From sequence record PQ821640: a stretch of DNA of 64,000 nt, one strand, 5' to 3'. Positions 2,207 through 17,487 of this stretch are shown piece after piece. The translations under genes were made by a program, and so were the position numbers. The notes beneath the pieces were generated by a model that did not search any database, had not been told where the DNA came from, and saw only the letters and a list, made by a program, of their open reading frames with translations. Every line of letters begins with the position of its first letter. Position 1 is the first letter of the stretch. The DNA is from Escherichia phage SD2.

Positions 2207-2716
2207 TTAGCGATAGAATTGATGTTCTTTGTAGCGGTACACTAGAACCATATCTTTTTCCCAGTGTGCTCTTATTGTAGATTTTTTAAAGTATAATGCT
2301 CCTTTTGTAATATCTAATGCAATTCGTAATTCTGGAAAATGGTTATCGAGATAAAGTAGACGTTCTGCTATAGCTTTAGCGTCTTTCCACTTATCGTGTT
2401 CCATAACGTTGAATGTCTTCGTGTAAGAGAATTGTCCTTTCTGAAACAAAACTTCTTTTATAGTATCAGGGAAATATGAATCTCTAGCCCTATTCAATAC
2501 TACATTACCAACAGCAGACATACCGCGCTTTCCTTGATTACGACTTTCTGCATAGATTGCACAAGCTAATAGATTTTCTTTACTATCACGCTTTGTACAC
2601 TTGTGAACTACTTTAGCAGTTTTTACGTTTGCAGCTTCGGCTTGCGCCACAACAGGTGTAAATGTAAAAGCAGTTAAGGATAGTAACGCAATTGCGACAA
2701 AGGTTTTTATTGACAA
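2207..2716 (-). CDS. secreted SleB/CwlJ-like cell wall hydrolase
   Basis: N-terminal signal peptide (AQAEAA cleavage region); motifs CAIYAESRNQG and VGNVVLNR typical of SleB/CwlJ family. Confidence 0.55.
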   Translation of the reverse strand: MSIKTFVAIALLSLTAFTFTPVVAQAEAANVKTAKVVHKCTKRDSKENLLACAIYAESRNQGKRGMSAVGNVVLNRARDSYFPDTIKEVLFQKGQFSYTKTFNVMEHDKWKDAKAIAERLLYLDNHFPELRIALDITKGALYFKKSTIRAHWEKDMVLVYRYKEHQFYR

Positions 2717-5211: not shown

Positions 5212-5767
5212 TGTCTTCTCCTTTACCTGCCCTCCAGCCTAAATAGAAAGCCTCTCTGGTGATCTTTTGCAACTCGTTTAAAGAGATAGTTACAACTAAA
5301 TCATCTTCAATCTCTAGCTTTGAGTCTTCTTCTGTCTCAATGCAAGTATTATGCACTTTGTGGTAAGGTTTGTCAACACGTTTAAATTTATTATTTTCAA
5401 TACTGAAGAAGCAATCTGGATCTTCTTCTCCATCACCCCAGCCCTGGTTAGGGTCTTCTTCAGATCTTTCTGTTGGGATCTCACCTGTAAAGTGCTCTTC
5501 TAATATCATAGCGATACCATCTCCAAGATCGGAAGAGAACATCAAGTTACAAACTTCTTCCCAAGGCATAGACCACTTAAATCTTTTACGATTGCCATGT
5601 TTATCTTCTTCGTTAGAGAAAACACTACCATAGCTATCATAATTGCCATACATCTCTTCAACAACTTTACCACCTTTCAAAAGAAATAGGTAGCAAGGAG
5701 AGCCATCGAAAGAGGTAGAAAGAGCAGCATTACCAGACTCTTTGCACAAGAAACTAAAACACCCCAT
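5204..5767 (-). CDS. hypothetical acidic protein
   Basis: ORF track 187 aa. Confidence 0.45.
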   Translation of the reverse strand: MGCFSFLCKESGNAALSTSFDGSPCYLFLLKGGKVVEEMYGNYDSYGSVFSNEEDKHGNRKRFKWSMPWEEVCNLMFSSDLGDGIAMILEEHFTGEIPTERSEEDPNQGWGDGEEDPDCFFSIENNKFKRVDKPYHKVHNTCIETEEDSKLEIEDDLVVTISLNELQKITREAFYLGWRAGKGEDSA

Positions 5768-5967
5768 TATACACCAGCCTTAAGATCAATTAAGGCCAAA
5801 GTTGTTTCAGAATGTGTTGGCTCGTCTACAGGTGCAGTCATATGATAATACAAAAAGTTTTCGGCATCATACCAATTTGACTCTTGACATTGTTTCCAAC
5901 CATCAATGAAAGCATCTTCCATAATGGTTTGTAATTCTTCACGAGTTAAGTGAATATCTTTATTCAT
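5767..5967 (-). CDS. hypothetical protein
   Basis: ORF track 66 aa; start/stop overlap with neighbours. Confidence 0.4.
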   Translation of the reverse strand: MNKDIHLTREELQTIMEDAFIDGWKQCQESNWYDAENFLYYHMTAPVDEPTHSETTLALIDLKAGV

Positions 5968-6200
5968 TACACATTCTCCTCTTTTACCAAATCCATCGTT
6001 GAACTATCAAAACCATCTTTAGAAGAATAGGTATAGACAGAACGTAGTTCTCGCAGGACAGTAAATACATTAGGATCATCTAACCAAGCATCCTGGAGGA
6101 GAACATAACGATCTTCATTGTCGTACTGGACAGCGATCATAGAACCAGACAGTTTGTAAATTTTAATATTCATAATATATTTCTCCTTAAAGTAGACCAC
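5967..6200 (-). CDS. hypothetical protein
   Basis: ORF track 77 aa. Confidence 0.4.
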   Translation of the reverse strand: MVYFKEKYIMNIKIYKLSGSMIAVQYDNEDRYVLLQDAWLDDPNVFTVLRELRSVYTYSSKDGFDSSTMDLVKEENV

Positions 6201-7290
6201 GTTTAACAGTTTGAATCATACCATCTTCAAGAGATTGTACTTCTTGAATGTAATCAATACGAGCAGCACGGGCTTCAGTGTTGATCCGATTAGTTTCTTC
6301 CAACATTTTAACTAAGTTTTCTTGATCGCGACGTAATGTCTCAATATCCAATACTTGACGATTAGCAAGTTGTGTAGCTTCAATTTGGTTTTGTGCAGCC
6401 AGATCACTACCCATTGCAATAGCAGCATTAAATTCATTCAGTACATTGTTCTGTGTATCGGCTGCTTTCTTCTGGCGTAGACTTTCAATATACATAGAAA
6501 AGTTTGCAGAGTAAGCAGGAATAACATTATTCACAATATTACGGGCTGATCGCATCAAACTTGCAGATACTTTCTGCATACTTTGTACACGTGGCCCCAT
6601 CTGAACACACAGTAAACGCAAGGCTTTCAGGTCTGCAATACGAATTTCAAGCAGATCCATAGTATCACGAGTACGTTGACGCTCTTCTACTTCATTTTCA
6701 GGTAGTGTATTAAGGCGAACTTCTTCTTTTTCATAAGTAGCTGTTAGAAGCTCTATATCCCTGTTTAAGCTAAGAGCATATTTTGCAATAGCCTCTTCTA
6801 AACGTTGCAGATATCGTAAAGAATCTTCTTCTTTTTTCAAGTCTGTTTGGAGTGTCTTTACCAAACCTTCAATACGATTATTGATGGTGTCAAATTCACC
6901 AAACAAATCTTCTTTCATACCTAATACTTTCTTAACTAGTTTACCTAAGCCTTTAGATTGTTTAATAGAATTAGGATCAAGTTGCTTTGCTTGCTTAATA
7001 AGTGCAGTTAAACGCTCACTCATTTCATCTCCCTGAGATGAACGCTGGTGTTTAAGCACTTCCGCATTAAGGTTACGAAGAGTAAGTCCTGCATCAGCAC
7101 CAACCTGTTCAATCTCTTCACGAGACATTGGAGGCAGCATTTGTACAGGTCGTGCAACAGCAGGGGCATATACAGGGCTTGCATCCATAGCAGTTGGAGC
7201 AAACAAAGACTTACTTTTTTCTGTTGTTGCCGTGAATACACTCATTTCAGACGGTTTGCTTTTTACGGCACTGATAAAAGGACTGGACAT
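6187..7290 (-). CDS. TelA-like (toxic anion resistance) coiled-coil protein
   Basis: 367 aa, long helical/coiled-coil region, size and composition like TelA/KlaA; Ter-gene context. Confidence 0.5.
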   Translation of the reverse strand: MSSPFISAVKSKPSEMSVFTATTEKSKSLFAPTAMDASPVYAPAVARPVQMLPPMSREEIEQVGADAGLTLRNLNAEVLKHQRSSQGDEMSERLTALIKQAKQLDPNSIKQSKGLGKLVKKVLGMKEDLFGEFDTINNRIEGLVKTLQTDLKKEEDSLRYLQRLEEAIAKYALSLNRDIELLTATYEKEEVRLNTLPENEVEERQRTRDTMDLLEIRIADLKALRLLCVQMGPRVQSMQKVSASLMRSARNIVNNVIPAYSANFSMYIESLRQKKAADTQNNVLNEFNAAIAMGSDLAAQNQIEATQLANRQVLDIETLRRDQENLVKMLEETNRINTEARAARIDYIQEVQSLEDGMIQTVKRGLL

Positions 7291-7358: not shown

Positions 7359-8210
7359 TTAAACAAACATATCTAAATAATTTGTAGTAATAAATGCTCC
7401 ATCTGCTTCCAGATTAACATAACCAGTAGCATTAGTGGTTAAGAAATCCAGATCGAAGGACTCTTTAACACCCCGTACCTCAACACGAGAGATATCGAAT
7501 ACAGGTAGTGTAACAGCCTCTTCGTGCAATACCGTACCTTTGTAGGTTGCCTTAATGATAAACTTGATATTACCCGTTCCCGCATCATACAAAACACTTT
7601 CAAACCCTTTGAGAGTATATTTATCACCAGAAGTGAAGTGCAAAGTTGCTTTGTTTACAGTACGTTTTTTACGAGGAGTTCCTTTCACACGTTTATGATC
7701 ACTACGTTTTTTGCATTTAGGAATGAATACAAACGATACACTCTCAAGAAAGGTATCAACATCAAGGATTTTAATATCCTCTGTTGCAGCAAATTTTGAA
7801 GTCGTTGCATCAAAATGCTTTCCCCTGCGATCATACATAAAGATATCAAACCGATCTTCTAAATCAAACAAATTGTGTATCTTAATTTCAGAATGCTTGC
7901 ACATTGCAGCAACCTTAAACTCTTCAAAACGTGGGTGTTCTACAAGCTCTTCAAGTTTTACACCAAAGACAGTATATTGTTTCGAAGTTTTTTCTGGCGT
8001 TGGCATTACAGAAGCATAATCACCGATTGCGCTTTTAAAGCAAAATTGTTCTTGACCTGTATTTTTACCAACGAATTTACAGTATTCATCATCGTGCATA
8101 CTTTCCTGGGTAGTACCAACAAACTCAAAACCATCCTTATTCTTCTCAAGAATTTCTTGATTAAAGATCCAACCTTCCAGGCGATACACTTTACCAACTT
8201 CTAGTTTCAT
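7359..8210 (-). CDS. hypothetical protein
   Basis: ORF track 283 aa; N-terminal GKVYR motif also seen in product of 45116-45568. Confidence 0.5.
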   Translation of the reverse strand: MKLEVGKVYRLEGWIFNQEILEKNKDGFEFVGTTQESMHDDEYCKFVGKNTGQEQFCFKSAIGDYASVMPTPEKTSKQYTVFGVKLEELVEHPRFEEFKVAAMCKHSEIKIHNLFDLEDRFDIFMYDRRGKHFDATTSKFAATEDIKILDVDTFLESVSFVFIPKCKKRSDHKRVKGTPRKKRTVNKATLHFTSGDKYTLKGFESVLYDAGTGNIKFIIKATYKGTVLHEEAVTLPVFDISRVEVRGVKESFDLDFLTTNATGYVNLEADGAFITTNYLDMFV

Positions 8211-8245: not shown

Positions 8246-8836
8246 TTAACGACGACGTGAGCTACTAAAACTACGTTTCGATGAAGAATAACTTTTCGAA
8301 GACTTACTATAAGAGCTAATAGGGCTTGAGTAAGACTTACGAGCAGAGTAATTACTATTCACTTTTGTTGTTGATGGGCGTGAATACGTTTGTACACTTT
8401 GCTGCTTAATTGTGTTTTGTTTAGTGGTTGTATATGTATTCCCTTGTTTATCATAAAAACTATGCTTTTGTGTTGTATATGCTTTACTATTAGTTGTAGG
8501 AGCAGCGTTGTTATTAATAATTGTTGTATTGCTACCGCCATCTCTATAACCACCACCGCCACTATTACCACTCAACATATGACCAAGAAGCATACCTGTA
8601 GCAAATTCACCTACACCAGAAGAACCACTGCCGCCTCCTTGCACAACAACTGTTGAAGGTTGTGCAGGTGCTGCTTGAACAACTTGAGGCGCAGGTTGAT
8701 TTACATATTGTTCATCTACCATCTGATTTGGTGTTTGTTGGTAACGTTGGTTTTGTACACTTTCAGAATCATCACAACCTACCAGCAATGCACTGCCTAA
8801 AACAACTGCAACAATAAAAGATTTAATGTTTTTCAT
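8246..8836 (-). CDS. lipoprotein with Gly-rich and Ser/Tyr/Lys-rich low-complexity tail
   Basis: Start moved to second Met (RBS GAGAGGG); signal peptide with lipobox LLVGC. Confidence 0.55.
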   Translation of the reverse strand: MKNIKSFIVAVVLGSALLVGCDDSESVQNQRYQQTPNQMVDEQYVNQPAPQVVQAAPAQPSTVVVQGGGSGSSGVGEFATGMLLGHMLSGNSGGGGYRDGGSNTTIINNNAAPTTNSKAYTTQKHSFYDKQGNTYTTTKQNTIKQQSVQTYSRPSTTKVNSNYSARKSYSSPISSYSKSSKSYSSSKRSFSSSRRR

Positions 8837-9029
8837 CTGTAACCCTCTCATTTAAAGTCTCGACACAATTTTTAAAATCTCTAGAGAAACAATACATCTG
8901 TTCTCCGTTCCTGTTGATAGTAATTGTATGGTTATCAACATATGTTGTCAAGATAAAAATCAAACAAAATAACCCTAAAGCAAAACAAATATTTTCAAAC
9001 AGAATCCAAAGAACACGTAAAACCACCAT
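8823..9029 (-). CDS. small hydrophobic protein
   Basis: ORF track 68 aa; predicted TM segment; RBS-like GAGGTGA. Confidence 0.35.
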   Translation of the reverse strand: MVVLRVLWILFENICFALGLFCLIFILTTYVDNHTITINRNGEQMYCFSRDFKNCVETLNERVTDEKH

Positions 9030-9068: not shown

Positions 9069-10046
9069 TTAAGCAACAGCCTGGTCTTCTTTTTCAGGGA
9101 AGATTAAACTTGCAATAACACCCAGTCCCAGAGTACCTAACACAATATACATACTGATCGTCGGATCAATGTGTGCTGGCAGGAAACTCACTTTTGCGTG
9201 CAGAGTTTCTGCAAACGGGTGATACATCAGTTTTACACCCACAAATACCAGGACTACGATAACTGCTTTCTCCAGATGAACCAAATATTTCAGTGCAACA
9301 CTAAGGACAAAGAACAGAGCACGTAGACCTAAAATTGCACACAGCATTGAAGAAAATACAAGCAGAGGTTCTTGTGTCACTGCAATTACTGCTGGAACAG
9401 AGTCTACTGCAAAGATTACGTCAACCATTTCCATTACAAACACACAAACCAATGCAGGAGTTGCTACACGAACACCATTTTTGATTGTGAAGAACTTCTC
9501 ACCATCCATCTGATCAGATACAGGGAACAGCTTACGAACAATGCGAGTAGCCCAGTGTTTAGAGTAATCAACTTCTGCGTCATTATCTCCAGCGAATACC
9601 ATTTTAGCGGCGCAGAAAAGGATGACCGCACCGAAGAAGATATTAACATACCAGCCCAAACTCAACAAGTAAGTACCTACTGCTACAAACACACCTCGGA
9701 AGACAATCGCACCTGCAATACCCCAAAGTAGAATCTTGTGCTGCAAGTGTGTGCTTTTAATACCAAAACTTGCGAATACTGCCACAAATACTACTAAGTT
9801 ATCTACAGAAAGAGATTTCTCCAACACATACCCACTCAAGAACAAGCTCGCAAAATCAGCACCGTGTTGGAAGTATACAAAACCATAGTAGGCTAACGAT
9901 ACCCCAATCCAGAAAATTGACCAGCCAATTGCAGATTTAAATGAAATTTCTTTGTTTTCTCTGTGTCCAAAGAAATCAATACAAATCGACAAGACTAAAA
10001 TACCCACTAAAACAACCACATCAATAATTGGGAAACCCAGTTGCAT
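9069..10046 (-). CDS. terC: TerC-family integral membrane protein
   Basis: 325 aa polytopic membrane protein with EKSLSVDN motif characteristic of TerC family. Confidence 0.75.
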   Translation of the reverse strand: MQLGFPIIDVVVLVGILVLSICIDFFGHRENKEISFKSAIGWSIFWIGVSLAYYGFVYFQHGADFASLFLSGYVLEKSLSVDNLVVFVAVFASFGIKSTHLQHKILLWGIAGAIVFRGVFVAVGTYLLSLGWYVNIFFGAVILFCAAKMVFAGDNDAEVDYSKHWATRIVRKLFPVSDQMDGEKFFTIKNGVRVATPALVCVFVMEMVDVIFAVDSVPAVIAVTQEPLLVFSSMLCAILGLRALFFVLSVALKYLVHLEKAVIVVLVFVGVKLMYHPFAETLHAKVSFLPAHIDPTISMYIVLGTLGLGVIASLIFPEKEDQAVA

Positions 10047-10602: not shown

Positions 10603-11319
10603 TTATTTCAGTTTGTAAACAATTACATTTAAACCTTTGTTTACTAGAGTTTCTTCGATCATAAGTTTTACAATATTCCAAGAACCTCCAGCCAAACCAC
10701 AACCAAGCATTGGTAAACCTACAATTTTACCGCCTGAAGATACAACATCGTCTCCCATACTATCTAACGCATTGTAGATAGCTTCATAATTCAGGTCACG
10801 CTTACCTTCCTCACGACGACTATAACCATATTGTCCATATAAATTATAAATTGTCAAATTGTTTTCTGTATACTTAGTAAACGTACCTAATTTTTTATAA
10901 TCACCACGCTTAGTGGCACAGTCTGCTTTAAACGCACCAGGCCACTTGCTTTTAATTTTTGGTGCAATACCACTACCCATAGTGCAAAAACAGTTACAGC
11001 AGTGTGCTATAGCGTCTATATCGCCTCTCTCTGCTGCTGCTAAAAGATCACCGTATACCTCAATGATACCTGCTGGATAACTTGTTACAATTTCATCTTC
11101 CCAGTACATTTTCTCTACACCACCGATCAGTGCAAAGTTTTGTGTGATGCGATCATCAATATAATTAAGACCTGAAACATACACAGCATATTCATCCTGT
11201 GCTGTAATGCCTTGTACACGAATTCTTAAGACACCATCTTTATCTGTTGCTACACGCCCAAAATCTTTTTCTGTAATATTGGTGATAGGATCTCCGAAAG
11301 TCGTCACTTTATTAGACAT
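10603..11319 (-). CDS. Macro-domain-like protein (putative ADP-ribose binding/processing)
   Basis: Start at internal Met with RBS AAAGGGG; DAIAHCCN...MGSGIA resembles macro-domain DAIVNAAN...GGGVA signature. Confidence 0.45.
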   Translation of the reverse strand: MSNKVTTFGDPITNITEKDFGRVATDKDGVLRIRVQGITAQDEYAVYVSGLNYIDDRITQNFALIGGVEKMYWEDEIVTSYPAGIIEVYGDLLAAAERGDIDAIAHCCNCFCTMGSGIAPKIKSKWPGAFKADCATKRGDYKKLGTFTKYTENNLTIYNLYGQYGYSRREEGKRDLNYEAIYNALDSMGDDVVSSGGKIVGLPMLGCGLAGGSWNIVKLMIEETLVNKGLNVIVYKLK

Positions 11320-12169
11320 AATAATCCCCTTTAACATTAGATTTGTTGATAATGTTGCTTTCAAAAAATTGATGCAGGAAATCAAAGTTCTTTTTGTATT
11401 TTTCAATATTATTGTAACCTTCTGCAAGGCAACCAAAGAACAGTTGTTCTACATAATACAAAGGAAGTTGTGAAAGTGCAATTTTAAAATCAACTTCGCT
11501 TTGACTCATTAGATACTTAATAGGACGAACCAAACATTTAGCATCAGTTTCTTGCTTAATCATTTTAATAAAAGCTGCCAGGTTATTGATATAGTTGAAG
11601 TTAAGTGCAGCTTCGGTGTTGGCTTCTGTACCTTCATACTTTGCAAAGTACAGGAAAAACGTATCGTTTTCAACACCTTCTTTGTCTAAAATTTCAATAA
11701 GTTTTTCTTCGTGTGTTCCTGTAATATTAACATCATCAATGAAAATCAGAGTTTTATTACCCCAGAAATCACGATTGATAGAGAAAGTGTCACCATCGAT
11801 CAAAGCCTTACGATCTTCTTTGCTAAGAAATCCATAATCATTGATATAACTCACTTTACGATGAACGATATCCCACTCTACTGCTTTACCTCCTTTGATA
11901 GAGATTAGGTAGTTGAGGTGATCTACAAAATGTTCAGATAACACTGTAGCTGCATTTTTCACATAGTTATATGGAGATGGAATAACAACAAAACTTTCAT
12001 TTACTAGTCGTTCTTCATATTTAGAAAAGAAACTTTCAGCCAGAATGCGTCCCATTCTTTTTGCTGCCTGGTTACTACCAAACTTTAGTTTGGAATAATC
12101 TGCAATGTTAAATTTTGCTTCCTTCAGGTTAGTAAAAGTATTAGCAAAATGTTGAATTTGATTACGCAT
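11312..12169 (-). CDS. phosphoribosyltransferase-like protein
   Basis: 285 aa; PRPP-binding-like motif LIFIDDVNITGTH. Confidence 0.5.
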   Translation of the reverse strand: MRNQIQHFANTFTNLKEAKFNIADYSKLKFGSNQAAKRMGRILAESFFSKYEERLVNESFVVIPSPYNYVKNAATVLSEHFVDHLNYLISIKGGKAVEWDIVHRKVSYINDYGFLSKEDRKALIDGDTFSINRDFWGNKTLIFIDDVNITGTHEEKLIEILDKEGVENDTFFLYFAKYEGTEANTEAALNFNYINNLAAFIKMIKQETDAKCLVRPIKYLMSQSEVDFKIALSQLPLYYVEQLFFGCLAEGYNNIEKYKKNFDFLHQFFESNIINKSNVKGDYYV

Positions 12170-14406: not shown

Positions 14407-14877
14407 TTAGTCAGATTCCCAAATGTTGTCTTTCTTAACCCACATTCGTTGATTATCTGAACCTCTATAACGTTTCGTTGTTGGTTGATTCATATCATAC
14501 TTACCATCTATCACTATGTCAACCAGTTTTTTAATTTTCTCTGGAATTTCTTCAAAAAGATATCCTGTATATAAGACAATATCTTTTTTGTTTCCAAAAC
14601 AATCTCTTACCTTCTCAAGAACATACTCTACAGTGTCAATGTTCTCTTTGTCAAGAGGTTCACCACCTAAAACTGTTAATCCTTTAATGAAAGGTCGAGA
14701 TAAATCTTCCAAGATAAGATCTAATGTTTCAGTAGTGAACTCTTGTCCGTAGTTATACGACCAGGCTTTCTGGTTAAAGCAGCCACGGCAACCGTGGCTA
14801 CAACCGCTCACCCACAAAGAGCATCTTACACCGTCACCGTTGAGCATGTCAACAGGTTCATATCCGGCGTAATTCAA
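14407..14877 (-). CDS. nrdG: anaerobic ribonucleotide reductase activating protein (radical SAM)
   Basis: 156 aa; CSHGCRGC radical-SAM cluster motif; 4-nt overlap with nrdD. Confidence 0.85.
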   Translation of the reverse strand: MNYAGYEPVDMLNGDGVRCSLWVSGCSHGCRGCFNQKAWSYNYGQEFTTETLDLILEDLSRPFIKGLTVLGGEPLDKENIDTVEYVLEKVRDCFGNKKDIVLYTGYLFEEIPEKIKKLVDIVIDGKYDMNQPTTKRYRGSDNQRMWVKKDNIWESD

Positions 14878-15845
14878 AAATGTTTCTCCCTTTCTAGTAC
14901 CTCTTGCATTTTACCTTTATTATAAGGGCGAGAGTTAGGGGCAGAAAGGTATCCTGACACTCTTCTGATCACAGATATGGATTCTTCTTCATGATTACCG
15001 CAACTTGGACACTCGAAGCCTTTAGCCGTTGCTTTAAATTCACCATGAAAACCACATTTGAAACACTGATCTACAGGTTGGTTCACGCCAAAATAAGGAA
15101 TTTTATTGTAGGCATAATCTACAAGAGTTTCCAGTGCTTGCAAGTTATTTTTAAGGTTTGGTGTTTCTACATAACCTATGTTCCCACCATTACTAATTTG
15201 TGCAAAACCTTCCTCATAATCCCACTTTTGGAACGGGGTAGTGTGCATCCATACAGGTTGATGGAAAGAGTTTGTCAAGTAGTCACGATCAATAGAGCCA
15301 GGATAGCGATCATTTAACGCTTTGGCAAATTTATAGCACAAGGATTCTGCTGGTGTTCCATACAAACTAAAAGCTAAACCAGAACGTTCTTTAAATGTGC
15401 AACAGATATCCTTCATATATTGAAGGATGTTTTTACCCATTGCTTTTGGATTGGTGTTGTTTGGGTATAAAATCTCCATAGCTTCTGCTAAACCTACATA
15501 ACCGATACTAATAGAGGCATAACCACCTTCAAATAGTTTACCAATCTCTTCATTAGCTTCTAGTCGAGCTAAAGCCCCTTCCATAAACAATGTAGGGTTT
15601 TGAGATGCTTTGGTATGTCTAATACGGTTAACACGTAGCATATGTGCCTTATACGCCATCTCCATATGTTGTTCCAACAGTTCAGTAAATAAGATGCCCT
15701 TTTCACGGGACTCTGCTGCAATGATAGGTAAGTTTAAAGAAACTACGCCTAAGTTGAAACGACCATCATATTTTTCACCTTGCTCTGTTGCATAGTATGA
15801 CAAGAAACTTCTACACATTATGTTCAAAGTGGCTCGCAAGGCCAC
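14874..15845 (-). CDS. nrdD: anaerobic ribonucleoside-triphosphate reductase, 3' exon (C-terminal half)
   Basis: C-terminal glycyl-radical-like IRRVSGYL, zinc ribbon CFKCGF...CPSCGN; 5' limit is a splice junction not resolved here (track start is GTG). Confidence 0.8.
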   Translation of the reverse strand: MALRATLNIMCRSFLSYYATEQGEKYDGRFNLGVVSLNLPIIAAESREKGILFTELLEQHMEMAYKAHMLRVNRIRHTKASQNPTLFMEGALARLEANEEIGKLFEGGYASISIGYVGLAEAMEILYPNNTNPKAMGKNILQYMKDICCTFKERSGLAFSLYGTPAESLCYKFAKALNDRYPGSIDRDYLTNSFHQPVWMHTTPFQKWDYEEGFAQISNGGNIGYVETPNLKNNLQALETLVDYAYNKIPYFGVNQPVDQCFKCGFHGEFKATAKGFECPSCGNHEEESISVIRRVSGYLSAPNSRPYNKGKMQEVLEREKHF

Positions 15846-16575
15846 TCCCGCACCATTACGTGCTGCTGCATGTCACCATGCAGATCAGACTATATCTTCA
15901 TGCTTAAAGCATGTCTACCATTTGGGGTGTCATAGGCTTACACCCTACGCTGCTACATTCATCACAGCTAGTCGTTAGGCATTTCGTAACAGAACTCATA
16001 ATCATAATTATTTGGTGCTCCGCGCTTTAAGATTGCAGATATTCTTTTTCTGTCCAACCCTAAAGCGTCAGCACAACATCTCAGACTTTTAAAGTAAAAA
16101 ACTTCACCAGTAGCCTTATGAGTAGCTTTTACACTGTGACACCTTGTGTAGAAAGCATAACAGTTATTATCGTAACCCTCTTGCGTGTTGTCTGGACAAG
16201 ATCCCCACTCAAGATTGTATACACTGTTGTCTTTCCTATTGTCACCTTTATGCTTCACATAAGATAAATTGTCTGGATTGGGTAAAAACGCTTCAGCTAC
16301 AAGTCTGTGCACCCGAAAGCAAACAGTTTTCTTGTTTTTACGTATTCTGACAAGTTGGTATCCTGTGTTTATTTCTTCCCACAAGCGAAGGATTCTTTCA
16401 TCCTTATACCTAGTACAATAAACATTTCCAAGCTCGTCAATTTCATACCCTTCAAAATCACGAATTTGTTTTCTCATATCAGTACCCCCTTCTTCTGTGT
16501 TGGGAGTTCTGTTACGTTTAGCACGGGATTGTCTCGTTGAGAGTTCCCCCGTTTAGGCAGATTTTACATGAGCAG
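15846..16575 (-). mobile_element. putative group I intron interrupting nrdD, carrying HNH homing endonuclease ORF
   Basis: nrdD reading frame broken between 16576 and 15845; intervening ~730 nt contains a free-standing HNH ORF and GC-rich structured flanks; boundaries approximate. Confidence 0.6.
15968..16477 (-). CDS. HNH-family homing endonuclease (intron-encoded)
   Basis: 169 aa; YEIDELGNVY, VHRLVAEAF, DNSVYNLEW motifs; RBS AAGGGGG. Confidence 0.75.
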   Translation of the reverse strand: MRKQIRDFEGYEIDELGNVYCTRYKDERILRLWEEINTGYQLVRIRKNKKTVCFRVHRLVAEAFLPNPDNLSYVKHKGDNRKDNSVYNLEWGSCPDNTQEGYDNNCYAFYTRCHSVKATHKATGEVFYFKSLRCCADALGLDRKRISAILKRGAPNNYDYEFCYEMPND

Positions 16576-17442
16576 TTATAGTTTACCCATGCTTGTGACG
16601 CGACCATCTGAAGATCCTGTAACTTCTTTGTTTAAAGGTACAGAGATAAAATCAGGATAAATGCGTTCAGCACAACACTCCATTGCCAGTTGCTTCAAAT
16701 CATAGTTTGGATCACCAGCTTTCATGTTAACACCATCTTCCAAGAAGAAGATAACTTTAGGAAACACAGGAGTTACCCTATCTTTTCCTAATCCTTGTTT
16801 GTGCACCATTAGGTAGTTTTTAGTGATCATTCTACCAAAAGCAGAGGTATCCAAACCTAAACTAATTGTTATAAAAGGTGACTGACCATTTACACTCATT
16901 AGGGTGTTCACCTGGTAGATTAAAGTTTGCATTGCATCATAGACCTGTTTATCTACCATACGCATAGCAATATCATAATCACCAACGTCAGCATAGATTT
17001 TATTAAAACTTGCTTTAACGTATTGACTAAGCCCAGTATCAATATGTGCACAAGTTTGTCCACCATATTGGCTAGAAGCTACTGCTTGAATAATTTGAGT
17101 TAGGACAGTAGTTGCTACACCGATAGATTTTGGTTTTTCAATATGTGCATTACCAATACGGAAACCGTTCTCAAGCATATCTTGGTAATTTACCAGGCAA
17201 CAGTTAGTTAGAGGTGAGAGTAAATAATCTAAATCGTGAATGTGACCATACCCGCTTTTATGCCATTCTGCCAGATCTTCCGGTAAAATATGGGTCATTG
17301 CCATGTGCTTGCTTAGGATACCTGCTAGTAAGTCTCGGTGAGTATTAACAATCATTGCAGGTTTGTTTGCATTTTCACGAGTAAATTCTTCGGATGTTTG
17401 TTCGAGGAATCCGATTACATCCTCATATAGTTTTTGGGTCAT
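16576..17442 (-). CDS. nrdD: anaerobic ribonucleoside-triphosphate reductase, 5' exon (N-terminal half)
   Basis: Start at Met11 of track ORF with GGAGG RBS; class III RNR-like sequence; in-frame stop at 16576 lies in the presumed intron, true exon end slightly upstream. Confidence 0.7.
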   Translation of the reverse strand: MTQKLYEDVIGFLEQTSEEFTRENANKPAMIVNTHRDLLAGILSKHMAMTHILPEDLAEWHKSGYGHIHDLDYLLSPLTNCCLVNYQDMLENGFRIGNAHIEKPKSIGVATTVLTQIIQAVASSQYGGQTCAHIDTGLSQYVKASFNKIYADVGDYDIAMRMVDKQVYDAMQTLIYQVNTLMSVNGQSPFITISLGLDTSAFGRMITKNYLMVHKQGLGKDRVTPVFPKVIFFLEDGVNMKAGDPNYDLKQLAMECCAERIYPDFISVPLNKEVTGSSDGRVTSMGKL

Positions 17443-17460
17443 TAATCCTCCGTGGAAAAT

Positions 17461-17487
17461 AAAAGCCAGCATTAAGCTGGCTTTAGG
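17461..17487 (-). terminator. rho-independent terminator upstream of nrdD
   Basis: AGCCAGCATTAAGCTGGCT hairpin followed on minus strand by TTTTATTTT. Confidence 0.55.

What the first reader, a model, noticed from the sequence alone, without database searches (positions are those of the whole stretch)
8246..8836. Lipoprotein with a long Ser/Tyr/Lys-rich low-complexity tail inside the Ter cluster
The protein has a lipobox signal peptide (LLVGC), a Gly-rich segment and a C-terminal third made almost entirely of S, Y, K, T and R. Small phage lipoproteins often mediate superinfection exclusion by blocking outer-membrane receptors, and the unusual tail could be an envelope-interacting region.
Basis: inference. 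Interest (0 to 1): 0.4.

Follow-up and report, generated by a model that had tools for sequence, protein, structure and literature searches.

The report
Disordered inner-membrane lipoprotein of phi92-like phages
This is a real, conserved phage gene (phi92 gp180) for a small, mostly unstructured lipoprotein whose sorting signal points to the inner membrane, not the outer; its function is unknown, and it probably acts on the cell envelope alongside the phage's TerC/TelA stress genes.

Summary
Window 8246..8836 (minus strand) encodes a 196-aa protein with a canonical lipoprotein signal (LLVG-C21), a Gly-zipper helix and a basic Ser/Tyr/Lys/Arg tail. The window is a phi92-like coliphage (Justusliebigvirus) and the gene is Phi92_gp180, annotated hypothetical everywhere.

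New here:
- **Sorting.** Cys21 is followed by Asp-Asp in 19 of the 20 aligned relatives (Asp-Ser in P0027). This is the E. coli LolCDE-avoidance signal, also seen in AcrA, so the protein should stay in the inner membrane.
- **Structure.** The mature chain is predicted disordered (pLDDT 54.6), acidic before the zipper (net -4) and very basic after it (+15).
- **Tail.** It is sequence-conserved, not just compositionally biased. [KR]S[YF]S motifs are 8-fold enriched over shuffles, and 144 of 174 relatives end in two basic residues.
- **Family.** A profile search finds about 250 relatives, all on phage-sized contigs, with no Pfam family.
- **Context.** The order TerC, small membrane protein, lipoprotein, TelA is kept in six contigs besides the window (a seventh keeps the interval without the small protein). 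Other members sit after holin-endolysin-spanin cassettes or elsewhere.

Similarity to E. coli YgiB (DUF1190) is weak and indirect. Function is inferred only: a periplasmic envelope factor anchored in the inner membrane.

The parts
8246..8836 (-). CDS of the lipoprotein (196 aa plus stop), orthologue of Phi92_gp180
   Evidence: ORF and translation. RBS GAGAGGG 6 nt upstream of the ATG. 95-100% identical in 54 Justusliebigvirus records, and the phi92 record carries a SignalP note. PHROG 21570, unknown function, E 1e-121.
8774..8836 (-). Signal peptide with lipobox L-V-G-C (aa 1-21; Cys21 = codon 8774..8776)
   Evidence: Read from the sequence. Only lipobox ORF in the window. Cys in 99% of 175 family members. 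Weak NCBIfam/PDB hits fall only on lipoprotein signal regions.
8768..8773 (-). Asp22-Asp23 (+2/+3 of the mature protein): LolCDE-avoidance / inner-membrane retention signal
   Evidence: C-D-D in the target and 19 of 20 aligned relatives; C-D-S in P0027. D at +2 in 66 of 153 and DD in 43 of 153 of the wider family. Same C-D-D in E. coli AcrA. Rule from PMC5727369 and PMC8333309.
8627..8773 (-). Acidic Gln/Pro/Val-rich linker (aa 22-70), ending in the conserved P/T-V-[IV]-V-Q strand-like motif
   Evidence: Q 22%, V 16%, P 10%, with 5 acidic and 1 basic residue in aa 22-70; net -4 for the stretch before the hydrophobic 19-mer. pLDDT below 56. V63 84% and V65 83% conserved in the family.
8549..8626 (-). 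Gly-rich segment with the Gly-zipper helix GEFATGMLLGHMLS (aa 76-89)
   Evidence: AF2 helix 76-89. G81 98%, G85 97%, H86 69%. Kyte-Doolittle 19-residue maximum 0.64, so not a membrane-spanning helix. Hydrophobic moment 0.03-0.12.
8507..8530 (-). Conserved T-T-[IV]-[IV]-N-N motif (aa 103-110)
   Evidence: T105 91%, N108 75% in 175 sequences. Nearly invariant in A1.
8249..8446 (-). Basic Ser/Tyr/Lys/Arg tail (aa 131-196) with [KR]S[YF]SS repeats and C-terminal RRR
   Evidence: Composition. The part after the zipper carries net +15. Over aa 153-196, pairwise identity is 0.70, equal to the zipper and above the middle region at 0.45. [KR]S[YF]S: 105 observed against 13 +/- 3.5 in shuffles. 144 of 174 relatives end in two basic residues.
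8823..9029 (-). gp181: 68-aa bitopic membrane protein whose stop overlaps the lipoprotein start by 14 nt; conserved partner
   Evidence: ORF. Homologues (40-62% identity) lie between TerC and the lipoprotein in L005, L011, L020, L021 and L033.
9069..10046 (-). TerC-family integral membrane protein, upstream neighbour
   Evidence: Pfam PF03741, E 1e-38. Synteny.
6187..7290 (-). TelA, downstream boundary of the conserved interval
   Evidence: Pfam PF05816, E 5e-34. Synteny.
7359..8210 (-). gp179, 283 aa, no known domain, immediately downstream; weakly conserved neighbour
   Evidence: No Pfam hit. PHROG 27504, unknown. tblastn 31-47% identity at the same position in relatives.
8923..8951 (-). Near-consensus sigma-70-like site TTGACA-17-TACAAT, 87 nt upstream of the lipoprotein ATG (function untested)
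   Evidence: 11 of 12 matches. The total count of promoter-like sites in the region equals the shuffle expectation, so this is only a lead.

Best explanation
Phi92_gp180 is an exported lipoprotein tethered to the periplasmic face of the inner membrane. It works there as an intrinsically disordered envelope factor.

**Proposed path**
1. It is translated from the long minus-strand block of replication and host-takeover genes. It lies directly after TerC and the small membrane protein gp181, whose stop codon it overlaps. The gene arrangement is shown; co-expression is inferred.
2. It is exported by Sec and lipidated and cleaved at Cys21 by Lgt, LspA and Lnt. This is inferred from a canonical signal and lipobox.
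3. Asp+2/Asp+3 prevents extraction by LolCDE, so it stays in the inner membrane. This is inferred from the E. coli sorting rule; conservation of the signal is shown.
4. The 175-residue mature chain has an acidic Gln/Pro spacer, one short Gly-zipper helix flanked by two strand-like motifs, and a +15 tail of [KR]S[YF]SS repeats ending in RRR. The anatomy is shown; disorder is predicted.
5. The zipper helix is too short and too polar to span the bilayer. I propose that it packs against itself or against membrane helices of a partner, with TerC or gp181 as the obvious candidates. I propose that the polycationic Tyr/Ser tail binds anionic envelope material such as phospholipid head groups, peptidoglycan, or nucleic acid in transit. 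This step is inference.

**Proposed role**
In phi92-like phages it would be the periplasmic arm of the TerC-gp181-gp180-TelA membrane module. That module would make the infected cell's envelope refractory to secondary insults, such as DNA entry by superinfecting phages or pore-formers. The action would be at the inner-membrane stage, not at outer-membrane receptors.
For: - **Real, selected gene.** 29 close and about 250 distant relatives. Zipper and tail regions are about 70% identical among relatives that are 42-60% identical to the target overall.
- **Lipoprotein signal.**
- **Sorting signal.** C-D-D in the target and 19 of 20 aligned relatives, identical to AcrA. Rule from PMC5727369 and PMC8333309.
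- **Not a membrane-spanning protein.** Kyte-Doolittle maximum 0.64 after the Cys.
- **Disorder.** pLDDT 54.6, pTM 0.19; only helix 76-89 and a small hairpin 126-136.
- **Charge segregation.** -4 before the zipper and +15 after it; family medians -3 and +10.
- **Ordered tail motifs.** 8-fold enrichment over shuffles, and only 0.6% Asp+Glu in family tails.
- **Synteny.** TerC, gp181-like, lipoprotein, TelA is kept in six contigs besides the window: L020, L021, L005, L011, L033 (Phapecoctavirus) and L035. L037 keeps the TerC-to-TelA interval without a detectable gp181-like gene. TelA identity to the window falls to 47-56% in the most distant of these.
- **Phage-restricted.** One motif scan of 185,579 species genomes gave two hits. 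One was a 420-nt contig that I did not examine; the other was a phage contig binned into a MAG. No hit in plasmids. Every member whose contig length I looked up lies on a contig of about 156 kb or less.
- **Published context.** Phage Ter clusters have been proposed to act against superinfecting phages (PMC7824862). Bacterial ter clusters give phage and colicin resistance (PMC11003894).
Against: - No experiment exists, and there is no homology to any protein of known function.
- The family is not tied to Ter. Members occur in phages without Ter genes: L007, L009, L010, L038 and a temperate lineage.
- In L003 the gene is not next to TerC.
- Asp+2 is found in only 66 of 153 of the wider family, so inner-membrane retention may not be universal. 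The hosts of those members are unknown.
- The binding target of the tail is pure inference.
- Exporting a +15 tail through Sec is unusual, though not prohibited.
Confidence: 0.4

Rival explanations
1. It is a stand-alone accessory ('moron'-type) envelope lipoprotein whose job is independent of the Ter genes. One possibility is a phage version of the Gly/Met-zipper stress lipoproteins of the host (YgiB/DUF1190-like, OsmB/SlyB-like) that modulates envelope stress or membrane integrity. On this view the position between TerC and TelA is historical.
For: - Family members lie in unrelated phages without Ter genes and in a P22-like phage between an HTH gene and the tailspike gene.
- A broad-family HMM scores E. 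coli YgiB at 30.9 bits. None of 500 window-shuffled controls reaches that (maximum 18.6).
- Pfam DUF1190 gives weak hits in 3 of 21 and 7 of 53 members.
- A YgiB-like lipoprotein has been noted in phage Moon (PMC4319498).
- The PDB profile search gives a weak SlyB hit, E 0.045.
Against: - The order TerC, gp181-like, lipoprotein, TelA is preserved while the lipoprotein itself has diverged to 37-50% identity.
- A profile of the close relatives alone does not detect YgiB, and YjfM is not detected at all.
- The Cys-rich N-terminal module of YgiB is absent.
- There is no YgiC/YjfC-like ligase in the window.
Confidence: 0.2
2. It is a lysis accessory: a periplasmic regulator anchored in the inner membrane (antiholin- or spanin-modulating), or a cationic factor that helps disrupt the envelope at the end of infection.
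For: - In ten contigs of one temperate lineage a family member is always the gene directly after holin, endolysin and Rz/Rz1, on the same strand.
- In phi92-like phages a secreted SleB-like hydrolase lies in the same gene block.
- The tail is strongly cationic.
Against: - phi92 and phAPEC8 already have a two-component spanin (PMC6139136).
- BME3, a close relative, has separate i- and o-spanin genes, and there the gp180 orthologue is annotated hypothetical (PMC12210895).
- In the window the gene sits among replication and nucleotide-metabolism genes, not with a holin.
- The temperate lineage is a single evolutionary sample (large terminase 81-94% identical), and the slot after Rz is a classic moron site.
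- The tail is not an amphipathic helix.
Confidence: 0.15
3. It is an outer-membrane lipoprotein that blocks the phage's own receptor, like T5 Llp or Cor.
For: - Small phage lipoprotein.
- Precedent of Llp (PMC9586334).
- One relative lies next to a tailspike gene.
Against: - Asp+2/Asp+3 in the target and 19 of 20 aligned relatives is the inner-membrane retention signal.
- No similarity to Llp, Cor or EexN families above noise.
- Predicted disordered.
- Not adjacent to receptor-binding genes here.
- phi92 uses several different receptors, which one small plug could not cover (own knowledge of Schwarzer et al. 2012, not checked here).
Confidence: 0.05
4. It is a periplasmic metal-handling partner or client of TerC. 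The conserved Asp/Glu-x4-Met-x3-His-Met-Met face of the zipper helix would bind a metal ion delivered by TerC.
For: - TerC proteins export Mn2+ and metalate exported proteins at the Sec translocon (PMC10550928).
- M82, H86, M87 and M/L88 are the commonest residues at their positions.
- The gene follows TerC directly.
Against: - His86 is only 69% conserved and Met82 only 47%, whereas the two glycines are 97-98%. That points to helix packing rather than ligation.
- Many family members have no TerC nearby.
- No match to any metal-binding family.
Confidence: 0.07

Closest known systems
E. coli YgiB (UPF0441 / DUF1190, PF06693), lipoprotein encoded in the tolC-ygiB-ygiC operon
   Same: - Lipobox signal.
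- Gln/Ala/Pro-rich spacer.
- A Met/Gly-rich helix (YgiB FWMPLMAGYMMGRLMGGG against phage FATGMLLGHMLSGNSGGGG).
- A short YxDxxGK-like hairpin motif.
- A Ser/Thr/Arg-rich C-terminal region.
- The broad-family HMM scores YgiB at 30.9 bits, above all 500 shuffles.
- Function also unknown (PMC11762307).
   Different: - No Pfam DUF1190 hit at threshold.
- Pairwise BLASTP E 0.06, over 20 residues only.
- The phage protein lacks YgiB's Cys-rich N-terminal module.
- Its tail is far more basic and repetitive.
- It has Asp at +2, where YgiB has Glu.
- It is not paired with a YgiC-type peptide-spermidine ligase.
Glycine-zipper stress lipoproteins (SlyB/PCP, OsmB; Pfam Gly-zipper_Omp, Rick_17kDa_Anti)
   Same: Small lipoproteins whose only ordered element is a GxxxG-type zipper helix that associates with membranes or with itself. 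Weak profile hits: SlyB E 0.045, Gly-zipper_Omp in 2 of 53 relatives.
   Different: - Those are outer-membrane proteins with two or more zipper helices and no long basic tail.
- The phage protein has a single 14-residue zipper, an inner-membrane sorting signal and about 100 residues of tail.
- The thresholds of those families are not met.
Phage superinfection-exclusion lipoproteins T5 Llp and Cor (phi80/N15)
   Same: Small, phage-encoded lipoproteins. An exclusion role is conceivable.
   Different: Llp is a folded protein in the inner leaflet of the outer membrane that binds FhuA (PMC9586334). gp180 has an inner-membrane signal, is predicted disordered, shows no sequence similarity and is not linked to receptor-binding genes.
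Ltp of Streptococcus phage TP-J34 (lipoprotein on the outer face of the cytoplasmic membrane that blocks DNA injection; own knowledge)
   Same: Lipid-anchored on the outer face of the cytoplasmic membrane. It is a precedent for exclusion at the DNA-entry step rather than at the receptor.
   Different: Ltp is from a Gram-positive system and has folded helix-turn-helix-like repeat domains. No sequence relationship was tested or seen here.
AcrA-type inner-membrane lipoproteins of E. coli
   Same: Identical sorting context: LTGC-DD in AcrA against LVGC-DD here.
   Different: Only the anchor is shared. AcrA is a folded membrane-fusion protein.

Membership tests
Bacterial lipoprotein (signal peptidase II substrate) | Basic n-region, hydrophobic h-region, lipobox [LVI][ASTVI][GAS]C with the Cys within about 15-35 residues of the start | tested here: met
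   MKNIK / SFIVAVVLGSALL / L-V-G-C21. Only such ORF in the window. Cys conserved in 99% of the family.
Bacterial lipoprotein (signal peptidase II substrate) | Actual lipid modification and globomycin-sensitive cleavage | not testable with these tools
   Needs labelling or mass spectrometry.
Inner-membrane-retained lipoprotein (LolCDE avoidance, Enterobacteriaceae) | Asp at +2, strongest with Asp/Glu/Gln/Asn at +3 | tested here: met
   C-D-D-S in the target. C-D-D in 19 of 20 aligned relatives and C-D-S in P0027. Same as AcrA. Rule from PMC5727369 and PMC8333309.
Inner-membrane-retained lipoprotein (LolCDE avoidance, Enterobacteriaceae) | Fractionates with the inner membrane | not testable with these tools
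   Experiment needed.
Receptor-blocking exclusion lipoproteins (T5 Llp, Cor) | Sequence membership in the Llp or Cor families | tested here: not met
   No hit in Pfam, NCBIfam, PHROGs (functionally annotated families) or PADLOC.
Receptor-blocking exclusion lipoproteins (T5 Llp, Cor) | Outer-membrane sorting (no Asp at +2) | tested here: not met
   Asp+2/Asp+3.
Receptor-blocking exclusion lipoproteins (T5 Llp, Cor) | Exclusion or adsorption phenotype | not testable with these tools
   Experiment needed.
DUF1190 / UPF0441 (YgiB, YjfM) | Pfam PF06693 at the gathering threshold | tested here: not met
   No hit for the target at E <= 0.1. Sub-threshold hits in 3 of 21 (best 0.38) and 7 of 53 (best 0.0029) relatives.
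DUF1190 / UPF0441 (YgiB, YjfM) | Profile-level similarity to YgiB beyond composition | tested here: inconclusive
   The broad-family HMM gives 30.9 bits, with 0 of 500 window shuffles reaching that. The close-relative HMM gives -1.9 bits, and YjfM is not matched.
DUF1190 / UPF0441 (YgiB, YjfM) | Cys-rich N-terminal module and pairing with a YgiC/YjfC ATP-grasp ligase gene | tested here: not met
   The mature phage protein has no Cys after Cys21. tblastn of YgiC and YjfC against the window gives a best E of 2.5.
Spanins (o-spanin / u-spanin) | o-spanin: short Pro-rich outer-membrane lipoprotein embedded in or adjacent to an i-spanin gene. u-spanin: outer-membrane lipobox plus a C-terminal transmembrane helix. 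| tested here: not met
   - Inner-membrane sorting signal.
- No C-terminal hydrophobic helix.
- No i-spanin-like neighbour; gp181 is only 68 aa.
- phi92/phAPEC8 spanins are already catalogued (PMC6139136).
- In L036 a complete Rz/Rz1 pair precedes the family member.
Glycine-zipper outer-membrane lipoproteins (SlyB/OsmB type) | Match to Gly-zipper_Omp / Rick_17kDa_Anti profiles, with two or more zipper helices | tested here: not met
   No hit for the target. 2 of 53 relatives at E 0.005. SlyB E 0.045. One zipper helix only.
Core component of bacterial Ter/Tel systems | Homologues in bacterial or plasmid ter/tel clusters | tested here: not met
   No tblastn match in 72,556 plasmids. The motif scan of 185,579 species genomes found two hits, one unexamined 420-nt contig and one phage contig. 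That scan used a single narrow motif, so distant bacterial relatives are not excluded.

The most novel reading that the evidence does not exclude
gp180 would define a phage-specific class of charge-segregated, intrinsically disordered periplasmic lipoproteins. The multivalent Tyr/Phe-Arg/Lys-Ser tail would act as a 'sticker-spacer' polymer that coats or gels anionic envelope material at the outer face of the inner membrane. Anchored through a Gly-zipper to TerC and gp181, it would be the long-missing periplasmic effector of a Ter-type system and would block entry of foreign DNA or pore-formers. The acidic mirror-image tails encoded next to family members in a temperate lineage hint that such tails work by complementary low-complexity pairing.
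Probability: 0.1. Interest if true: 0.7.

Novelty: new variant of a known kind. Interest (0 to 1): 0.35.

Why it matters
What Ter/Tel clusters do mechanistically has been unclear for decades, and their presence in virulent phages is unexplained. A conserved, exported component anchored in the inner membrane and wedged between TerC and TelA gives a small, genetically tractable handle on the periplasmic side of that system.

It is also a cautionary case. A lipobox alone does not imply an outer-membrane receptor blocker, because the +2/+3 residues change the predicted compartment and therefore the plausible mechanism.

More generally, the family of about 250 representatives, all seen so far on phage-sized contigs, is an example of a positionally conserved 'low-complexity' tail. 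Such tails are usually masked and ignored in phage annotation.

Tried and rejected
- **Domain libraries.** Pfam, NCBIfam, PHROGs and PADLOC scans of the target and its relatives gave no informative family. The only hits were signal-peptide-level matches, sub-threshold DUF1190, DUF2076, YjbE and LysC, and PHROGs of unknown function.
- **PDB profile search.** Only lipoprotein signal regions, with weak SlyB and LptM hits.
- **Structure.** AF2 with a 71-sequence alignment gave pLDDT 54.6 and pTM 0.19. I therefore did not run a fold search, which would be meaningless.
- **YgiB homology.** Pairwise BLASTP and the close-relative HMM were negative. Only a broad, possibly bridging profile was positive. 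I do not file the protein under DUF1190. The homologue search seeded with YgiB returned only relatives at least 82% identical, so it was no use for a diverse profile.
- **Membrane-spanning topology with a cytoplasmic basic tail.** Rejected, because the zipper's hydropathy (0.64) is far below that of a transmembrane helix.
- **DNA-level repeat as the origin of the tail.** Rejected.
- **Spanin.** Rejected (see the membership test).
- **The search for related loci.** It failed with the broad alignment, which had no conserved stretch. With A1 it gave only 4 loci, so I used a degenerate DNA motif instead.
- **Anantharaman et al. 2012 (PMC4104200).** Not held in the library.
- **Promoter scan.** One 11-of-12 site, but the overall count equals chance.
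Full report
**What is there.**
- The finding is a genuine gene on the minus strand, 8246..8836, encoding 196 residues.
- The ATG at 8836 has a GAGAGGG ribosome-binding site 6 nt upstream. The in-frame ATG at 8851 has none.
- The window is 98-99% identical to Escherichia phages of the genus Justusliebigvirus (phi92-like, Stephanstirmvirinae).
- The protein is the orthologue of Phi92_gp180. It is 'hypothetical' in all 54 records that carry it; the phi92 record adds only a SignalP note.
- All surrounding genes are on the same strand. In order along the window they are TerD, vWA-TerF-like, TelA, gp179, the lipoprotein, gp181, TerC, Macro, PRTase_3, HAD and an AAA ATPase.

**Checking the observation.**
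- The signal peptide and lipobox (LLVG-C21) are canonical.
- A lipobox regular expression applied to every possible ORF of the 64-kb window finds only this gene.
- The tail is 73% S/T/K/Y/R over residues 131-196 and 84% over residues 150-196. It is the most extreme such stretch in the window: 0.83 against 0.60 for the runner-up among 316 open frames.
- It is not a DNA repeat, and it uses both serine codon families. The bias is therefore selected at the protein level.

**Anatomy from comparison.**
- A word-indexed search found 29 relatives, all without Pfam domains.
- An alignment of 21 of them (42-60% identical to the target) shows which parts are conserved:
  - the lipidated Cys followed by Asp-Asp;
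  - a VDEQYVNQPAPQVVQ-type linker;
  - the zipper GVGDFATGMILGHMMSGG;
  - RTTIINNN;
  - an FYDxxGKQVY hairpin motif;
  - a tail SYSAKKSYSSPMSSYSKPSRSYSSSKSYSSSRSSFSSSRRR.
- By region, pairwise identity is 0.72 for the zipper and 0.70 for the tail, but 0.45 for the middle segment. The 'low-complexity' tail is one of the best conserved parts.
- A profile search of 1.84 billion representative proteins gave 250 hits at E <= 1e-3. The sequences I read share the same architecture.
- In the 174 listed:
  - the lipobox Cys is 99% conserved and the two zipper glycines 97-98%;
  - 144 of 174 end in two basic residues (RRR in 54);
  - acidic residues make up 0.6% of the last 50 positions;
  - [KR]S[YF]S occurs 105 times against 13 +/- 3.5 in shuffled tails.

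**Topology.**
- After the Cys, the most hydrophobic 19-residue window scores 0.64 on the Kyte-Doolittle scale. The family median is 0.86, and only 1 of 153 reaches 1.6. The zipper is therefore not a membrane-spanning helix, and the whole mature chain should be periplasmic.
- Charge is segregated: net -4 before the zipper and +15 after it.
- AlphaFold2 with 71 sequences gives mean pLDDT 54.6 and pTM 0.19. The only elements are the signal helix, helix 76-89 and a small hairpin at 126-136.
- The zipper helix has almost no hydrophobic moment (0.03-0.12). That fits a packing helix rather than a surface-seeking amphipathic helix.

**Which membrane.**
- In E. coli, Asp at +2 is the LolCDE-avoidance signal that keeps lipoproteins in the inner membrane (PMC5727369, PMC8333309). 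From my own knowledge of Terada et al. 2001, the signal is strongest with an acidic or amide residue at +3.
- The target and 19 of its 20 aligned relatives carry C-D-D. P0027 has C-D-S.
- The inner-membrane lipoprotein AcrA has the same LTGC-DD.
- In the wider family, Asp+2 occurs in 66 of 153 sequences. The hosts of those phages are unknown and sorting rules differ between bacteria.
- For this coliphage the prediction is an inner-membrane anchor.

**Genomic context.**
- The start codon overlaps the stop of gp181 by 14 nt. gp181 is a 68-residue protein with one N-terminal hydrophobic helix and two conserved cysteines. It follows TerC after 39 nt.
- The order TerC, gp181-like, lipoprotein, TelA recurs in six contigs besides the window:
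  - two 50%-identical relatives, L020 and L021;
  - P0027, where the short contig ends before any TelA;
  - P0030;
  - Phapecoctavirus, L033 and L035.
- P0034 (L037) keeps the lipoprotein in the TerC-to-TelA interval, but Band_7 and two small genes separate it from TerC and no gp181-like match was found.
- TelA identity to the window falls to 47-56% in the most distant of these.
- The lipoprotein evolves faster (37-52% identity) than TerC or TelA.
- The family is not confined to Ter clusters:
  - In P0026's phage it lies about 2 kb beyond the TelA-vWA-TerD-SleB block, with no TerC or gp181-like gene in 16.6 kb.
  - Other members are in a PolA-type lytic phage.
  - One is in a P22-like phage, between an HTH gene and the tailspike gene.
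  - Others lie beside ribonucleotide reductase and Thy1 genes.
  - In ten contigs of one temperate lineage the member comes directly after holin, endolysin and Rz with embedded Rz1.
- Every member whose contig length I looked up lies on a contig of about 156 kb or less.
- A motif scan of one genome from each of 185,579 species gave two hits. One was a 420-nt contig that I did not examine. The other was a Phapecoctavirus-like contig binned as a MAG.
- The plasmid collection gave no match. As far as these searches reach, the family is phage-borne.

**Relation to known proteins.**
- No library gives a significant functional match.
- The closest thing I could find is E. coli YgiB (DUF1190). It also has a lipobox, a Gln-rich spacer, a Met/Gly-rich helix and an S/T/R-rich end.
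- Pairwise BLASTP aligns only the helix (E 0.06). The profile of close relatives does not find YgiB.
- A profile of all 175 family sequences scores YgiB at 30.9 bits, against a maximum of 18.6 in 500 window shuffles. The paralogue YjfM is not matched.
- The phage protein lacks YgiB's cysteine-rich module. The window has no YgiC/YjfC-type ligase.
- I treat this as a resemblance, possibly distant homology of the zipper-plus-tail part, not as membership. YgiB's own function is unknown in any case (PMC11762307).

**Spanin rival.**
- phi92 and phAPEC8 have catalogued two-component spanins (PMC6139136).
- The close relative BME3 has separate i- and o-spanin genes, and there the gp180 orthologue is annotated hypothetical (PMC12210895).
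- o-spanins must reach the outer membrane.
- In the temperate lineage a complete Rz/Rz1 pair precedes the family member.

**Most likely mechanism.**
- Shown: a selected, exported lipoprotein gene; a conserved inner-membrane sorting signal; a disordered, charge-segregated chain with one zipper helix and an ordered repetitive basic tail; and conserved linkage to TerC, gp181 and TelA in phi92-like phages.
- Inferred: the protein sits on the periplasmic face of the inner membrane, uses the zipper to self-associate or dock on membrane helices (TerC or gp181), and uses the cationic Tyr/Ser tail to bind anionic envelope material.
- Ter clusters confer phage and colicin resistance in bacteria (PMC11003894). 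Aravind's group has proposed that phage-borne Ter genes act against superinfecting phages (PMC7824862).
- The best-supported role is therefore a contribution to envelope hardening or exclusion at the inner-membrane stage. I give this 0.4.
- Rivals:
  - a Ter-independent envelope moron, YgiB-like (0.2);
  - a lysis accessory (0.15);
  - a TerC-linked metal-handling protein (0.07), given that TerC proteins metalate exported proteins (PMC10550928);

**Verdict.**
- The finding is real and more structured than 'low complexity' suggests, but it is an uncharacterised accessory protein, not a new kind of system.
- It is already present in databases as a hypothetical protein (PHROG 21570; UniProt labels the Phapecoctavirus homologue 'Lipoprotein').
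- What this analysis adds:
  - the inner-membrane prediction, which redirects the mechanistic hypothesis;
  - a definition of the family signature;
  - the conserved TerC-gp181-gp180 arrangement;
  - the second recurrent context after lysis cassettes.
- Interest is moderate (0.35).

Noticed in passing
window 14874..17472 (minus strand): The anaerobic ribonucleotide reductase gene nrdD is split. 16576..17472 matches Pfam NRDD positions 1-263, and 14874..15845 matches positions 263-562 plus Gly_radical. Between them lie a 169-aa HNH / I-HmuI-like endonuclease ORF (15968..16477) and a group I intron match (RF00028, 15866..15973, 39.3 bits, below the gathering score of 50, E 3e-8). In phage W22 nrdD is one uninterrupted 1800-nt CDS. 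This looks like a mobile group I intron with a homing endonuclease.
   Followed up: partly
window 8823..9029 (minus strand); also L005 1156-1347, L011 3591-3809, L033 6814-7059: gp181 is a 63-81-aa protein with one N-terminal hydrophobic helix and a conserved GEQxxCFSxDFKxxC motif (two cysteines, probably periplasmic). It always sits between TerC and the lipoprotein in Ter-bearing relatives and is absent where the lipoprotein is not next to TerC. No known family; weak DUF6693 hit, E 3.5e-4.
   Followed up: partly
window 8923..8951 (minus strand): A near-consensus sigma-70-type site, TTGACA-17-TACAAT (11 of 12), lies inside the gp181 ORF, 87 nt upstream of the lipoprotein start. It could give the gene its own host-RNA-polymerase promoter. 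The total number of promoter-like sites in the region is no higher than in shuffles.
   Followed up: no
L036 6576..7022; L031 1581..2114; also L023, L030, L032: In the temperate lineage the family member (basic S/F/R tail) is followed, in 5 of 10 contigs, by a gene whose product has a highly basic N-terminus and an acidic 'mirror-image' tail (SHDYSSSHHSSHDSSSYDSGSSSYDSGSSSSGSDSSW). This could be a complementary low-complexity pair, but the partner has no signal peptide, so it may sit in a different compartment.
   Followed up: partly
L022-L026, L028, L030-L032, L036: Ten viral contigs of one lineage (large terminase 81-94% identical) carry a family member directly after holin, endolysin and Rz, on the same strand. 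In the three sequences read in full (P0042/L036, P0043/L031-L032, L028) the lipidated Cys is followed by D-R or D-Q. In L036 the Rz gene contains an embedded Rz1 (5669..5845, LLTGC-S, Pro-rich).
   Followed up: yes
window 2207..2716 (minus strand): A SleB-like cell-wall hydrolase (Pfam Hydrolase_2) with its own Sec-type signal peptide lies next to TerD. The TerD-SleB adjacency is kept in L021, L033 and L037; in L003 Band_7 and one more gene lie between. It is separate from the phage's lysis cassette (PMC12210895 describes two endolysins in BME3).
   Followed up: no
L011 520..1815: A distant Ter-bearing relative encodes a PARP-domain protein (WGR/PARP_reg/PARP) just upstream of TerC. The window encodes a Macro-domain protein (10603..11436) in the equivalent block. 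ADP-ribose chemistry seems to be a recurrent companion of phage Ter clusters.
   Followed up: no
records MG065639, MG065645, MG065656, MG065689 in the phage collection: Four records named 'Campylobacter phage' (host C. jejuni) are 98.6% identical to this E. coli phi92-like sequence over 6.2 kb. The host assignment looks doubtful, or the samples were contaminated.
   Followed up: no
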